A stretch of 64,000 nucleotides of DNA, from contig MFAE01000006.1 in the NCBI GenBank assembly GCA_001774495.1, forward strand, positions 5,356-69,355. The letters run 5' to 3'. Position numbers and translations under genes: made by a program. Below, one piece after another: positions 6,695 through 62,397 of this stretch. The notes under the pieces were generated by a model, which ran no database searches, was not told the origin of the DNA, and saw nothing but the letters and a program-made list of their open reading frames with translations. Position 1 is the first letter of the stretch, and every line of letters begins with the position of its first letter. Source of the DNA: Candidatus Campbellbacteria bacterium RIFOXYC2_FULL_35_25. GTDB taxonomy: Bacteria; Patescibacteriota; Minisyncoccia; Phycocordibacterales; UBA12079.

Positions 6695-7660
6695 CTATAC
6701 ACTAAAGAAAAATAGATACGCTAAAAAAACCAAATAAAAAGTTGTCATGATGACCGCGTTTTTCTTTGACAAAGTATAATCACTAACAATAAAAATATTG
6801 ACTAATATAGTAGCCAAAAATAAACTAAGCATTATTTCTACTCCTCCAATAGCAACCGTTATCGTTTCACCAAAAAAAACAGTAGCTAGAAATAATGGTA
6901 AACCAAGACCAACAAAAATATTAAATATATTTGAACCAAAAATATGAGACATCGCATCATCATTATCTCCACTCTTTGCATTCAAAGCTACCATAACAGT
7001 ATCAGGGATTGATGTAGCAACGGCAATAACAGAAAAGCCAACTAAAATTGCAGGTATTCCTAATAAAGTAGAAACTATGATTGCATGTTCAGTTAAAAAA
7101 TAGGCAGCGATACCAATTAAAACCATACTTAGGATAGCTATCGTGATTTCTTTAGCAACAGAGAATACATCCATTACCATCCTAGGGTGATGCGTTTGAT
7201 ATTCTTTTGTTTGTTCAACTATTATATTTGTATACCAAATATAAGCAGCAATAAAAATAACGGCGATAGCGATACCCCAATCAGTTGAATATAAAACGGC
7301 CCCCAACAATGCTAATATCGCAATATTATAAAAAATAGCATCTCTCGCCACAACTTCACGACTAACCCGAAAAACAATAGGTGAGAAAAAAACAGCAACA
7401 CTTGGGATAATTAAAATATTAAACAAAACAGAACCCGCAATAATCCCCACACCAAAATCAAACAAATGAAAATAAGTTACAGAAAAAATAGCAATCATTA
7501 ATTCTGGGAAAGAGCCAGCAATAGCATCTAGTGTAGCCCCTTTAACTGCAGGAGAAAGATTAAAATAATAGCCTATCTCTGAAGAAGCTTTAGTAAAACG
7601 ACTTCCAGAAAGATAGATAACGATGCCACTTATTATTATGATTAAAATACTCGTAAACAT
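6695..7660 (-). CDS. CaCA-family Na+/Ca2+ exchanger-like membrane protein
   Basis: About 10 TM helices with two alpha-repeat motifs (GSNIFNIFVGLGLP and GS.LFNILII). The ORF track starts at GTG 7684; ATG at 7660 (MFTSILIII...) sits 8 nt after a TATACT box and is the more likely start. Confidence 0.7.
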   Translation of the reverse strand: MFTSILIIIISGIVIYLSGSRFTKASSEIGYYFNLSPAVKGATLDAIAGSFPELMIAIFSVTYFHLFDFGVGIIAGSVLFNILIIPSVAVFFSPIVFRVSREVVARDAIFYNIAILALLGAVLYSTDWGIAIAVIFIAAYIWYTNIIVEQTKEYQTHHPRMVMDVFSVAKEITIAILSMVLIGIAAYFLTEHAIIVSTLLGIPAILVGFSVIAVATSIPDTVMVALNAKSGDNDDAMSHIFGSNIFNIFVGLGLPLFLATVFFGETITVAIGGVEIMLSLFLATILVNIFIVSDYTLSKKNAVIMTTFYLVFLAYLFFFSV

Positions 7661-7675
7661 AAGGATAAGTATAAA

Positions 7676-7706
7676 CCCCCACACCTTTTTTTAAAAGGTG
7701 TGGGGG
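7676..7706. mobile_element. MITE-like element copy 1 (minimal): 13-14-bp terminal inverted repeats CCCCCACACCTTT/AAAGGTGTGGGGG, 3-5-nt centre, flanked by 4-bp direct repeat TAAA
   Basis: Read directly: taaa-CCCCCACACCTTTT-ttt-AAAAGGTGTGGGGG-taaa. The same inverted repeats and 4-bp duplications occur at 55585-55709 and 62294-62383. Confidence 0.6.
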
Positions 7707-7730
7707 TAAAGTAGCTAGTATCGAGAAACA

Positions 7731-7761
7731 AAAAACTGCCCCGCATGACAATGCGGGGCAG
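7731..7761 (-). terminator. intrinsic terminator hairpin (ctgccccgcat-gaca-atgcggggcag) followed by a T-run on the minus strand
   Basis: Perfect 11-bp GC-rich stem directly 3' of minus-strand gene 7780..8349, with an A/T-run on both sides. Confidence 0.7.
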
Positions 7762-8439: not shown

Positions 8440-8474
8440 CCAAAAAGTTGGGTGTCCGACACCCAACTTTTTGG
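8440..8474 (-). terminator. intrinsic (bidirectional) terminator: ccaaaaagttgggtgtc-g-gacacccaactttttgg
   Basis: Perfect 17-bp palindrome flanked by A- and T-runs, 3' of the helicase gene on the minus strand. Confidence 0.7.
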
Positions 8475-54956: not shown

Positions 54957-55577
54957 CTACAAATGCATTTCTTCAAAAATCTCTCCTATCATCTTTTGGG
55001 CTTCTTTTTTTACAGTCTCCATTTTTAAAATTAATTTATTACTTAATTCCCTTGAACTCAAAAAATCAGAAAAAAGTTCTTTACTCACATTTTTGTCAAA
55101 GTATCCTAAATTATTTAATATTTTAATATTCGTTATTAACCCTAGGTTCTCTAATTCTTTTTTACTCAAATCTCGTTCTTTCAAAAAATTTACGGTATCT
55201 GAAACAATATCAAAAAGTTCCTCATTTTTTTCTTCACCGTGGATAAGCTTTCTGAGCAAAGAAAATATACTCAAAATAAAATCAAATCTTTTATTTTCCC
55301 TTATCCCTTGCCCAGAGAATATAAAAAACAAATTTTCTATTGGGGAGACATTTGTTATTCTCCAAATGTCTTTTCCTCTGACCAAAGAAATATCAGAAAT
55401 AGAAAAATCCTGTAAACCATAGCGATTTTTCGAACTTATTTTTCGAACACCCTGGGCCGTTGCGTTAATAAGACCGAGCTCTCTTGTGAAAAGATAGAAA
55501 AACTTATTCGATTCGCCAGTGTCAAAACTATTTAAAACAATACCTTGGGTGGTGTAGATGTTATGCATAATATCCAA
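54957..55577 (-). CDS. recO: DNA repair protein RecO (short)
   Basis: N-terminal OB-fold region TQGIVLNSFDTGESNKFFYLFTRELGLINATAQGVRK matches the RecO N-domain. ATG 55568 is the likely start; the ORF track uses TTG 55577. Confidence 0.6.
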   Translation of the reverse strand: MDIMHNIYTTQGIVLNSFDTGESNKFFYLFTRELGLINATAQGVRKISSKNRYGLQDFSISDISLVRGKDIWRITNVSPIENLFFIFSGQGIRENKRFDFILSIFSLLRKLIHGEEKNEELFDIVSDTVNFLKERDLSKKELENLGLITNIKILNNLGYFDKNVSKELFSDFLSSRELSNKLILKMETVKKEAQKMIGEIFEEMHL

Positions 55578-55584
55578 GTATAAA

Positions 55585-55709
55585 CCCCCACACCTTTCAT
55601 TGCAAAAACATGCATATGTTTTATTTTAGACATTTTTATAATGAAAGATATGGGCTGATAAACCCCCGCTCACTTTGTGAGCTCACACCTTTGAATAAAG
55701 GTGTGGGGG
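55585..55709. mobile_element. MITE-like element copy 2 (125 bp): TIRs CCCCCACACCTTT / AAAGGTGTGGGGG, flanking 4-bp direct repeat TAAA, inserted between the -35 spacer and -10 box of the recO promoter
   Basis: Read directly. The interior carries degenerate extra copies of the arm (aaacccccgctcac, gagctcacaccttt) and small hairpins. Confidence 0.6.
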
Positions 55710-55743
55710 TAAAGTAGCGAGTATCAAGTAACAAGATAAAATT

Positions 55744-62025: not shown

Positions 62026-62099
62026 TGGCTGGGGGGCAGGGATTCGAACCCCGACAAGCAGACCCAGAATCTGCGGTCCTACCATTAGACAAACCCCCA
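62026..62099 (-). tRNA. tRNA-Gln (anticodon CUG), CCA encoded
   Basis: Hand fold of the reverse complement: acceptor TGGGGGT/CCCCCCA (7:66 U-C mismatch), D-arm GTCT-AATGGTA-GGAC, anticodon arm GCAGA-TTCTGGG-TCTGC, T-arm CGGGG-TTCGAAT-CCCTG, discriminator G, CCA. Confidence 0.75.
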
Positions 62100-62112
62100 G
62101 CAAAATTAAAAA

Positions 62113-62240
62113 TGTGAAGAGAGATGAGGAAGAAAATCGGCGGCAGTGTCCTCACACACGCATTCGCCAACATCTCGCAAGTTTTAGCTTCCCAAAGAAG
62201 CCTGCTCTGGGCAATACTTGTAAAATGTATCTCTCTTCAC
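62113..62240 (-). ncRNA. structured leader / candidate small RNA co-transcribed upstream of tRNA-Gln
   Basis: 12-bp long-range stem GTGAAGAGAGAT...ATCTCTCTTCAC encloses a GC-rich core, between a sigma70-like promoter and the tRNA. Confidence 0.35.
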
Positions 62241-62261
62241 AAAAAAGAGCAAATTTACATC

Positions 62262-62292
62262 ATTATACTACCTAAATAAACTTTTACGTCAA
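62262..62292 (-). promoter_or_regulatory. sigma70-like promoter TTGACG-19 nt-TATAAT driving the leader + tRNA-Gln transcript
   Basis: Minus strand reads cTTGACGtaaaagtttatttaggtagTATAATgatg. The -35 box abuts the CAAG duplication of MITE copy 3. Confidence 0.5.
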
Positions 62293-62293
62293 G

Positions 62294-62383
62294 CTCCCAC
62301 ACCTTTCATAATATTATTAAATAATTTTACAAAAGAGATTTACCTATTTTTTCCAAAGAACGATATTATGAAAGGTGTGGGGG
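62294..62383. mobile_element. MITE-like element copy 3 (90 bp): TIRs CTCCCACACCTTT / AAAGGTGTGGGGG, AT-rich 51-nt core, 4-bp direct repeat CAAG
   Basis: Read directly: caag-CTCCCACACCTTT-...-AAAGGTGTGGGGG-caag. Confidence 0.6.
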
Positions 62384-62397
62384 CAAGCAAAAATAAA

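What the first reader, a model, noticed from the sequence alone, without database searches (positions are those of the whole stretch)
55585..55709. MITE-like family with perfect 13-bp terminal inverted repeats and 4-bp target-site duplications (three copies in 64 kb)
Three copies were found:
- 7676-7706: 31 bp, flanked by TAAA.
- 55585-55709: 125 bp, flanked by TAAA.
- 62294-62383: 90 bp, flanked by CAAG.

All are bounded by CCCCCACACCTTT ... AAAGGTGTGGGGG (one mismatch in copy 3) and immediately flanked by identical 4-bp direct repeats. The internal lengths vary (5, 99 and 51 nt) and no ORF is inside. This is the signature of non-autonomous insertion elements. The 4-bp duplications resemble some IS5/IS427-group or IS1182-type elements, but I cannot assign a family.

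The minimal copy 1 is a solo inverted-repeat pair that would form a 14-bp perfect RNA hairpin.
Basis: seen in the sequence. Interest (0 to 1): 0.7.

Follow-up and report, generated by a model that had tools for sequence, protein, structure and literature searches.

The report
Hairpin mini-transposons tied to GIY-YIG nuclease
The repeats are real mobile hairpin elements that insert with 4-bp duplications. Their gene-carrying relatives in other ultra-small (CPR) bacteria are only about 300 bp long and encode nothing but an 84-residue GIY-YIG nuclease, so they may be an undescribed and unusually small kind of transposon.

Summary
CCCCCACACCTTT and its complement occur six times in the window against 0.1 expected, always as facing pairs flanked by identical 4-bp repeats. 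The 125-bp "copy" is really two tandem elements.

The window comes from Candidatus Campbellbacteria. A relative whose RecO is 88% identical has the empty site for copy 2: a single TTTA inside an intact TTGTTA-17-TATACT-7-ATG promoter. So these are insertions with target-site duplications.

Across public genomes, 35 of 70 full-armed copies have identical 4-bp flanks (shifted controls 0-2 of 70). Most hits are in CPR/Patescibacteria.

No DDE transposase was found. Instead, 277-330-bp elements with the same terminal repeats and duplications carry one 84-aa single-domain GIY-YIG gene (UPF0213/Slx1-like). Terminal-repeat subtypes track protein clades. A ~70-nt form shows strong compensatory base-pair changes, which points to a folded single-strand form.

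The closest published system is Ssn/SRM (Chenal et al. 2025), but that paper reports no duplications, its search motif has no match in the window, and it does not mention CPR.

The window holds only non-autonomous copies; no GIY-YIG gene lies within about 77 kb. That the nuclease mobilises them is inferred, not shown.

The parts
7672..7675 (.). Target-site duplication TAAA, left of copy 1 (TTTA on the gene strand)
7676..7706 (.). Copy 1: minimal 31-nt hairpin element, with two perfect 13-nt arms and a 5-nt loop
   Evidence: As DNA it folds at -17.4 kcal/mol, z = -5.4.
7707..7710 (.). Target-site duplication TAAA, right of copy 1
7726..7731 (-). -35-like TTGTTT of the Na/Ca-exchanger gene promoter, now separated from its -10 by copy 1
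   Evidence: Sequence. Removing the element and one TTTA gives TTGTTT-17 nt-TATACT-7 nt-ATG. Promoter function is inferred.
7668..7673 (-). -10-like TATACT, 7 nt upstream of the ATG (7660) of the Na/Ca-exchanger gene 6695-7660. It overlaps the duplication by two bases.
   Evidence: The gene call of 321 aa is.
55581..55584 (.). TAAA duplication, left of element 2B
55585..55656 (.). Element 2B: 72 nt. One arm is perfect (55585-55597). The other has decayed to AAAGATATGGGCT (55644-55656). The stem is extended by CATT/AATG and there is an inner hairpin.
55659..55662 (.). Middle TAAA, between the two tandem elements
55663..55709 (.). Element 2A: a 47-nt short hairpin element whose left arm (CCCCC|CACACCTTT) is split by an inserted palindrome
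55668..55683 (.). 16-nt palindrome GCTCACTTTGTGAGCT nested inside the arm of element 2A (origin unexplained)
55710..55713 (.). TAAA duplication, right of element 2A
   Evidence: The relative L202 has a single TTTA here.
55729..55734 (-). -35-like TTGTTA of the recO promoter, cut off from its -10 by 129 inserted bases
   Evidence: The relative L202 has TTGTTA-17 nt-TATACT-7 nt-ATG uninterrupted.
55577..55582 (-). -10-like TATACT, 8 nt upstream of the recO ATG (recO is 54957-55568)
62290..62293 (.). CAAG duplication, left of copy 3 (CTTG on the gene strand, forming the start of the TTGACG -35-like box at 62287-62292)
62294..62383 (.). Copy 3: a 90-nt element. The inverted repeat extends to 21 nt (C[T/C]CCCACACCTTTCATAATAT). 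The 48-nt interior is unstructured and AT-rich.
   Evidence: z = -7 to -8
62384..62387 (.). CAAG duplication, right of copy 3

Best explanation
The window carries four non-autonomous copies (31, 47, 72 and 90 nt) of a hairpin-forming mobile element family that is widespread in CPR/Patescibacteria.

Family members end in CCCCCACACCTTT...AAAGGTGTGGGGG. They insert with a 4-bp duplication, occasionally 5 bp, at sites with the symmetric consensus G|TTTA|C.

The gene-bearing members are only about 280-330 bp. Between the same terminal repeats they hold a single 84-aa, single-domain GIY-YIG nuclease of the UPF0213/Slx1-like (structure-specific) type.

Proposed mechanism (inferred). One strand of the element folds back on itself, or the duplex extrudes a cruciform. 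The nuclease, supplied in trans, recognises the conserved terminal stem and cuts at its base. The element is then placed into a break with a 4-nt stagger, and gap filling makes the duplication.

In this genome, two insertions sit between the -35 and -10 boxes of leaderless promoters (recO and a Na/Ca exchanger). A third abuts the -35 of the promoter-like sequence upstream of tRNA-Gln.

Shown: the insertion, the duplication, the hairpin, the association with the GIY-YIG gene, and co-diversification of repeats and protein. Inferred: that the GIY-YIG protein is the mobilising enzyme, and how it acts.
For: Enrichment and pairing of arms.

Empty site. L202 (RecO 88% identical) reads TTGTTACTTAATACCTACTACTTTATACT...ATG with one TTTA. 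The window has TTTA-[129 nt]-TTTA at that point.

Genome scan. More than 111 hits, and 55 of the 80 listed rows carry CPR names. Of 70 non-redundant full-armed copies, 35 have identical 4-bp flanks, against 0-2 in shifted controls.

Further empty sites in orthologous gyrA and TatD-like genes.

Gene-bearing elements. L036:921-1233 is flanked by TTGA on both sides; L097 and L098 are similar. The ORF matches Pfam GIY-YIG at E = 3e-19.

The protein family. More than 380 homologues were found, and most of the 120 listed are exactly 84 aa with conserved catalytic-type residues.

Repeats around the gene. Among metagenome loci carrying homologues at 53-84% identity, 60 gene copies have inverted repeats 14-60 nt upstream and 12-30 nt downstream of the ORF, most starting CCCCCACACC. 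Of 56 non-redundant elements, 18 have exact 4-bp flanks against 2 in the control.

Repeat subtype follows protein clade.

The Nomurabacteria genome MFVF01 has the gene-bearing element plus hairpin copies on at least 9 contigs.

The ~70-nt form has a three-way-junction fold. Eleven of 31 pairs show compensatory changes, and 0 of 500 shuffles reach the observed covariation score.

The predicted fold (pLDDT 92) is nearest UPF0213 and Slx1, a nuclease that cuts branched DNA.

The target consensus is symmetric: G at -1 in 27 of 49 sites and C at +4 in 31 of 49.

Precedent. Single-domain GIY-YIG Ssn nucleases cut ssDNA next to hairpin repeats that flank their own gene (PMC11893778).
Against: No GIY-YIG gene lies in the window or in about 13 kb of extra flank. 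The copies here may be orphans.

No GIY-YIG protein has been shown to transpose DNA. Known GIY-YIG enzymes leave 1-2-nt 3' overhangs (from established knowledge), not the 4-nt stagger a 4-bp duplication implies.

The gene-bearing copy P0001 was seen in only one genomic context across 24 contigs. The gene itself is therefore not visibly hopping in that population.

Only about a third to a half of copies have perfect duplications.

Some hits in non-CPR MAGs lack the family's flanks and may be chance or mis-binning.
Confidence: 0.6

Rival explanations
1. These are ordinary MITEs moved by a conventional transposase that has not yet been seen (DDE type: IS5/IS427/IS1182-like, or IS1380/IS701-like with 4-bp duplications). 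On this view the GIY-YIG gene is a passenger that happens to sit inside some copies.
For: Terminal inverted repeats plus fixed-length duplications with a symmetric target are the classic DDE signature. No GIY-YIG transposase is known. The gene-bearing copy P0001 is single-context.
Against: No transposase ORF was found between such repeats in 111 genome loci, 80 metagenome loci or the window. The GIY-YIG ORF fills the element in 60 independent gene copies, and repeat subtypes co-vary with GIY-YIG clades. That is not expected of a passenger. Compensatory changes in the stems argue for pairing rather than protein-read duplex sequence.
Confidence: 0.17
2. This is a domesticated Ssn-like host system. 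The hairpins are recognition sites for a chromosomal ssDNA nuclease that polices incoming or replicating single-stranded DNA (for example during DNA uptake). They are no longer, or not primarily, selfish mobile DNA.
For: In Neisseria, the Ssn/NTS pair modulates transformation, and the gene is single-copy and flanked by its repeats. Here the gene is single-context while the hairpins are many. One insertion sits at the same flanks in three different genomes with its structure preserved (L017, L064, L102).
Against: This reading does not explain the duplications and the empty site. These show that the copies arrived by insertion, one of them after divergence from a relative whose RecO is 88% identical. 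Insertions also split promoters and sit in frame in gyrA, which looks parasitic rather than designed. The reading is not exclusive of the best explanation.
Confidence: 0.15
3. These are REP-like elements moved by the IS200-type Y1 transposase (RAYT-like) encoded about 2.6 kb beyond the window start.
For: A 230-aa PF01797 gene is present in the same contig neighbourhood. RAYTs are known to spread hairpin repeats.
Against: That gene is flanked on both sides by a different palindrome (GTTGGGTGTC-CG-GACACCCAAC), which also occurs at window 8447-8467. From established knowledge, Y1 transposition makes no target duplication.
Confidence: 0.03
4. This is a conserved cis-regulatory hairpin (operator, attenuator or terminator), or a chance palindrome.
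For: All copies are intergenic and lie next to promoters or terminators.
Against: The element is absent at the orthologous recO promoter of a close relative. Arm spacing varies from 5 to 64 nt. The same arms occur in unrelated contexts across many genomes, with duplications. Chance expectation is 0.10 against 6 observed. There is no Rfam match.
Confidence: 0.02

Closest known systems
Ssn nucleases and their Ssn-related motifs (NTS/SRM hairpin repeats): Chenal et al., Nat Commun 2025 (PMC11893778)
   Same: Both have a small single-domain GIY-YIG protein (84 aa here, 94 aa there). In both, the gene is bracketed by the same hairpin-forming repeat that is scattered through the genome in many copies. 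Repeat and protein co-vary between lineages. The authors themselves note that the layout resembles an insertion sequence.
   Different: Here the gene sits between the two halves of one inverted repeat, not between two complete hairpins. Copies carry 4-bp target-site duplications and have empty sites, which that paper does not mention. The published SRM search motif (HGTCWY...) has no match in the window. The host clade is CPR, which the paper does not mention. The nearest solved relatives are UPF0213 and Slx1, and placement in the cd10448 clade could not be tested.
MITEs of bacteria (for example Correia/NEMIS elements of Neisseria)
   Same: Short, non-coding, with terminal inverted repeats and fixed-length target duplications. 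They are multi-copy and intergenic, form hairpins, and can disturb or supply promoters.
   Different: Known MITEs derive from IS elements with DDE transposases. Here the only gene-bearing relatives encode a GIY-YIG nuclease and are themselves MITE-sized (about 300 bp).
REP/BIME repeats with RAYT (Y1, IS200-like) transposases
   Same: A single-copy nuclease gene is flanked by the hairpin repeats it presumably spreads. A single-strand hairpin is the likely substrate. A separate REP/RAYT-like pair is present in this very genome.
   Different: REPs have no target duplication. The enzyme class is HUH/Y1, not GIY-YIG. The sequences are unrelated.
Rickettsia palindromic elements (RPEs)
   Same: Relatives of the window's element are inserted in frame into essential protein genes and read through as extra peptide (gyrA and a TatD-like gene). 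Others lie in structural RNA genes.
   Different: No sequence similarity. No duplication-based family definition is known to me for RPEs. None of the window's copies lies in a coding region.

Membership tests
MITE (miniature inverted-repeat transposable element) | Terminal inverted repeats | tested here: met
   13-nt arms, perfect in 5 of 6, extended to 21 nt in copy 3
MITE (miniature inverted-repeat transposable element) | Target-site duplication of fixed length | tested here: met
   4 bp at all window copies. 35/70 genome-wide against 0-2/70 in shifted controls.
MITE (miniature inverted-repeat transposable element) | Presence/absence polymorphism with a precise empty site | tested here: met
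   L202 has a single TTTA at the recO promoter. L115/L050/L057 and L024 are empty for two other insertions.
MITE (miniature inverted-repeat transposable element) | Small, non-coding, multi-copy | tested here: met
   31-90 nt with no ORF; four copies in 64 kb. At least 9 contigs of the genome MFVF01 carry copies.
MITE (miniature inverted-repeat transposable element) | Shares its ends with an autonomous element that encodes the transposase | tested here: inconclusive
   The window copies share 16-17 terminal bases with 277-330-bp gene-bearing elements. Their only product is a GIY-YIG nuclease, whose transposase activity is unproven.
   None found between such arms in 111 genome loci, 80 metagenome loci or the window. 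The search was limited to loci of at most 8 kb, not whole genomes.
Ssn/SRM system (Chenal et al. 2025) | Single-domain GIY-YIG protein of about 90 aa | tested here: met
   Pfam PF01541 covers residues 1-71 of 84, E = 3e-19. The model has pLDDT 92 and no extra domain. This applies to relatives' elements, not to the window.
Ssn/SRM system (Chenal et al. 2025) | Protein belongs to the cd10448 clade | not testable with these tools
   No CDD models and no SsnA sequence were available. The nearest solved or annotated relatives are UPF0213 (1ywl, 1zg2, YazA) and Slx1, which hints at a neighbouring clade.
Ssn/SRM system (Chenal et al. 2025) | Repeats match the SRM motif HGTCWYN(0-2)YYVSBRHN(0-5)WNVSBRGN(0-2)RNCYNB | tested here: not met
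   0 matches in the whole window, both strands
Ssn/SRM system (Chenal et al. 2025) | Gene flanked on both sides by the repeat, and the repeat dispersed in the genome | tested here: met
   60 gene copies are flanked by matching arms. MFVF01 has the gene plus many hairpins. The flanks are half-sites of one inverted repeat, not two complete hairpins.
Ssn/SRM system (Chenal et al. 2025) | Site-specific cleavage of ssDNA next to the hairpin | not testable with these tools
   Needs biochemistry
REP/RAYT | Y1 transposase flanked by the same repeat; no target duplication | tested here: not met
   The nearby Y1_Tnp gene is flanked by a different palindrome. Our elements do have duplications.

The most novel reading that the evidence does not exclude
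The 84-aa GIY-YIG protein is itself the transposase. The ~300-bp unit (terminal repeat, gene, terminal repeat) would then be an autonomous DNA transposon of a new mechanistic class: neither DDE, HUH/Y1, serine, tyrosine nor Cas1. It would be the smallest known. It would act through a folded single-strand or cruciform intermediate and leave 4-bp duplications. Its hairpin derivatives have colonised promoters, protein-coding genes (in frame), 16S rRNA and RNase P RNA across the CPR.
Probability: 0.4. Interest if true: 0.9.

Novelty: new variant of a known kind. Interest (0 to 1): 0.78.

Why it matters
If the GIY-YIG protein moves these elements, it adds a new enzyme class to DNA transposition and lowers the known size floor for an autonomous element to about 300 bp.

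It would also give a mechanistic origin for the hairpin repeats linked to Ssn-type nucleases. The published work left that question open.

For CPR biology, the elements show a family of insertions that split promoters, add peptides to essential proteins such as gyrase, and sit inside rRNA and RNase P RNA helices. This matters for annotation, for assembly breaks, and for understanding the odd insertions long noted in CPR genes.

Pairs of a tiny nuclease and a 13-nt hairpin that it specifically recognises could also serve as ssDNA tools.

Tried and rejected
- Rfam and tRNA scans of the window found only tRNA-Gln; there is no RNA family at the elements.
- A scan of viral contigs for the two-arm pattern gave 0 hits.
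- Literature searches (sequence string; MITE + Patescibacteria; GIY-YIG + TIR/TSD; GIY-YIG + CPR; RPE + GIY-YIG) found no description of this family. Only the Ssn paper is close, and its supplements are not held.
- I looked for arm pairs 0.5-4 kb apart that could bound a classical transposase. None were found, only the ~300-bp GIY-YIG units.
- I tested whether window element 2B keeps a remnant of the GIY-YIG ORF. It shares ATATGTTTTATTT with the ORF start of L128 (13/13, E = 0.004 in a tiny database). This is too weak to claim.
- A de novo repeat finder mis-anchored element ends where duplications are partly palindromic (T...A). It first gave 4/60 duplications. After allowing for the overlap it gave 18/56 against 2/56 in the control.
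- I looked for multiple genomic contexts of the identical protein P0001. There was only one, upstream of rplJ, so there is no direct evidence of recent movement of the gene-bearing copy.
- I tested the nearby Y1 transposase as the mobiliser. It was rejected because it has its own different palindrome.
- A plasmid-database search for annotated relatives returned only Firmicute UPF0213/YazA-type genes at 37-44% identity, so it gave no Ssn reference sequence.

Full report
**Observation**

The 13-mer CCCCCACACCTTT occurs six times in the window when at most one mismatch is allowed. The hits form three facing pairs at the stated coordinates. Shuffled sequence gives 0.10 hits on average, and none of 100 shuffles reaches six. 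Each pair is flanked by identical 4-mers: TAAA, TAAA and CAAG.

Three details need correcting.
- The interior of copy 3 is 64 nt, not 51.
- Folding and inspection show that the 125-bp "copy 2" is two tandem elements. Element B (55585-55656) has a decayed distal arm, AAAGATATGGGCT. Element A (55663-55709) has one arm interrupted by a 16-nt palindrome. TAAA lies before, between and after them. This is the pattern expected from two successive insertions into the same preferred tetranucleotide.
- The 25 extra bases shared by the flanks of copies 1 and 2 belong to the host promoters, not to the element (see Context).

**Context**

All neighbouring genes are on the minus strand. RecO homologues identify the source as Candidatus Campbellbacteria bacterium RIFOXYC2_FULL_35_25, a CPR/Patescibacteria organism. 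Ten contigs carrying the identical RidA protein were all the same strain, and all carried the elements.

A contig from a relative whose RecO is 88% identical (L202) gives the empty site. It reads TTGTTA-CTTAATACCTACTACTT-TATACT-AGATGTT-ATG with one TTTA. The window reads ...CTACTTTA-[125 nt]-TTTATACT.... This shows three things:
- the DNA was inserted;
- TTTA was duplicated;
- the insertion split a sigma-70-like promoter (17-nt spacer) lying 7-8 nt upstream of the start codon, which suggests a leaderless transcript.

Copy 1 splits a very similar promoter of a Na/Ca-exchanger gene in the same way. Copy 3 lies between a terminator and the TTGACG box upstream of tRNA-Gln, and its CTTG duplication regenerates the start of that box. 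Promoter function is inferred from sequence only.

**Distribution**

Of the 80 listed, 55 carry CPR names: Nomura-, Sacchari-, Uhr-, Kaiser-, Kerfeld-, Falkow-, Yonath-, Doudna-bacteria and Paceibacterota.

Of 70 non-redundant copies with full 13-nt arms:
- 35 have identical 4-bp flanks;
- 11 more match at 3 of 4 positions;
- shifting the comparison by 1-4 nt gives 0-2 matches.

The commonest duplications are TTTA, TAAA and TATA. Forty-nine reconstructed empty sites give a symmetric consensus G|TTTA|C(C). This fits a two-fold symmetric staggered cut.

Two more insertions have empty sites in orthologous genes of other genomes. Both are in frame. One adds 36 nt to gyrA and the other adds 78 nt to a TatD-like gene.

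**The gene-bearing partner**

I looked for longer elements with the same ends and found 313-nt units. Examples are L036:921-1233, flanked by TTGA on both sides, and L097 and L098. Their interior is filled by one 84-aa ORF.

- **Family.** It is a GIY-YIG catalytic domain (Pfam E = 3e-19).
- **Relatives by sequence.** The nearest solved relatives are UPF0213 proteins.
- **Relatives by fold.** The predicted fold (pLDDT 92) is nearest UPF0213 and the branched-DNA nuclease Slx1.
- **Family size.** There are more than 380 homologues. Most of the 120 listed are exactly 84 aa, with conserved GIY/YIG tyrosines and conserved Arg, His and Glu positions.

I fetched 80 metagenome loci carrying homologues of 53-84% identity. 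In them, 60 gene copies are bracketed by inverted repeats, most of which begin CCCCCACACC. The repeats lie 14-60 nt upstream and 12-30 nt downstream of the ORF, and most units are 277-330 nt long. Of 56 non-redundant units, 18 have exact 4-bp flanking repeats, against 2 in a displaced control. One subfamily shows 5-bp repeats.

Repeat subtypes follow protein clades. Examples are ...CCTTT...CCAAT...CCATAAC, CCCCCCACCACTTT and GCCCCTCAC.... So repeats and gene diversify as one unit.

In L098 a short hairpin copy is nested inside a gene-bearing unit. The Nomurabacteria genome that encodes protein P0001 also has hairpin copies on at least nine contigs.

The window copies share 16-17 terminal bases with the ...CCTTT class.

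**Structure**

Every window copy folds far better than shuffled controls as single-stranded DNA (z = -5 to -8).

A ~70-nt subfamily from other genomes has a long stem capped by two small hairpins. Eleven of its 31 pairs show changes on both sides that keep the pairing. No shuffle of 500 reaches the observed covariation score, and slid registers collapse to 41-60% pairing against 96.8%.

If a protein read the duplex sequence, the sequence would be conserved. Covariation instead indicates that pairing itself matters, which means a folded single strand or a cruciform.

**Most likely mechanism**

Shown:
- insertion with a 4-bp duplication at a symmetric target;
- hairpin potential under selection;
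- systematic, co-evolving linkage of the ends to a tiny GIY-YIG gene.

Inferred: the nuclease recognises the folded terminal stem and cuts at its base, the element is inserted at a 4-nt staggered break, and repair makes the duplication.

The published precedent is the Ssn family. These are single-domain GIY-YIG enzymes that cut ssDNA next to hairpin repeats which flank their own gene and litter the genome (PMC11893778). That paper notes the resemblance to an insertion sequence. It reports no duplications, does not demonstrate transposition, and does not mention CPR. Its SRM search motif has no match in this window.

Weak points:
- No GIY-YIG gene lies in the window or in about 13 kb of extra flank.
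- P0001 occupies a single genomic context in 24 contigs.
- Known GIY-YIG enzymes do not make 4-nt staggers (from established knowledge).

**Rivals**

- **An unseen DDE transposase with the GIY-YIG gene as passenger.** This fits the duplication signature. It does not fit the co-variation of ends with protein, or the absence of any such gene in about 190 loci.
- **A domesticated Ssn-like host function.** This is compatible with single-copy genes and with one insertion kept at the same flanks in three genomes. It does not explain the empty site seen in a close relative, or the promoter-splitting insertions. It can coexist with mobility.
- **The Y1 (IS200/RAYT-like) gene just outside the window.** It has its own, different palindrome.
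- **A regulatory hairpin, or chance.** Both are excluded by the empty site, the variable arm spacing and the statistics.

**Verdict**

What is new is the partner: a ~300-bp unit that encodes only a GIY-YIG nuclease and carries transposon-type ends and duplications. It is widespread in CPR bacteria, and I found no description of it in the searchable literature.

I rate it a new variant of a known kind (Ssn/SRM-like hairpin systems and MITEs). There is a substantial chance that it represents a new transposon class.

Noticed in passing
window 8447-8467; L208:13600-14400: A second, unrelated hairpin repeat, GTTGGGTGTC-CG-GACACCCAAC, lies downstream of the PIF1-helicase gene. The same palindrome flanks both sides of a 230-aa Y1_Tnp (PF01797, IS200/RAYT-like) gene about 2.6 kb beyond the window start. 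This is a REP/RAYT-like pair in a CPR genome.
   Followed up: partly
window 7707-7731 and 55710-55734 (minus strand): The recO and Na/Ca-exchanger promoters share 25 nt (TTGTTWCTYGATACTMGCTACTTTA), including the normally unconstrained spacer. The relative L202 has a similar spacer without the element. This could be a shared regulatory site or an extended target preference; it is unexplained.
   Followed up: partly
window 55668-55683: A 16-nt palindrome, GCTCACTTTGTGAGCT, is inserted between CCCCC and CACACC of one arm of element 2A. Its origin is unknown.
   Followed up: no
L039:3185-3215; L044:7413-7486: Family members are inserted in frame and read through in protein genes. One adds 12 residues (PPHLFSKGVGAM) to gyrA and another adds 26 residues to a TatD-like hydrolase. 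Orthologues in other genomes lack them. This resembles Rickettsia palindromic elements.
   Followed up: yes
L045:6809-6858; L115:620-646: The same hairpin core lies inside a 16S rRNA gene (helix 6/V1 position) and inside an RNase P RNA gene, just 5' of GAGGAAAGTCCG (P3-like position). So structural RNA helices also host or mimic the element.
   Followed up: partly
L017:6214-6284, L064:7623-7693, L102:1317-1387: One ~71-nt copy sits at the same flanks in three different genomes, without a duplication, and with compensatory changes in its inner hairpin. It is an old insertion whose structure has been kept.
   Followed up: partly
window 55566-55582 and 7658-7673; L203:2470-2510: recO and the exchanger gene have a TATACT box 7-8 nt before the ATG and no Shine-Dalgarno sequence. 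The same holds for recO in two relatives and for several GIY-YIG genes inside their elements (TAGAAT or TATAAT 6-8 nt before the ATG). This suggests leaderless transcripts are common here.
   Followed up: no
window 55598-55605 (minus-strand TTGCAATG): The inner end of element 2B supplies TTGCAA exactly 17 nt upstream of the displaced TATACT of recO. This may be an outward-facing replacement -35 box. Copy 1 offers only TTTTAA at that distance. The point rests on sequence inspection.
   Followed up: no
window 62100-62262: About 160 nt separate the TATAAT box from the mature tRNA-Gln (62026-62099, minus strand). That is an unusually long leader, and its content is unknown.
   Followed up: no
L202:1-20: The contig that supplies the empty site begins with the Illumina adapter sequence GACGTGTGCTCTTCCGATCT. 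The junction of interest lies well inside genuine sequence.
   Followed up: yes
L133, L187, L178, L126: Some short contigs carry two GIY-YIG units of different repeat subtypes side by side. This suggests that several nuclease/repeat pairs coexist in one genome.
   Followed up: no
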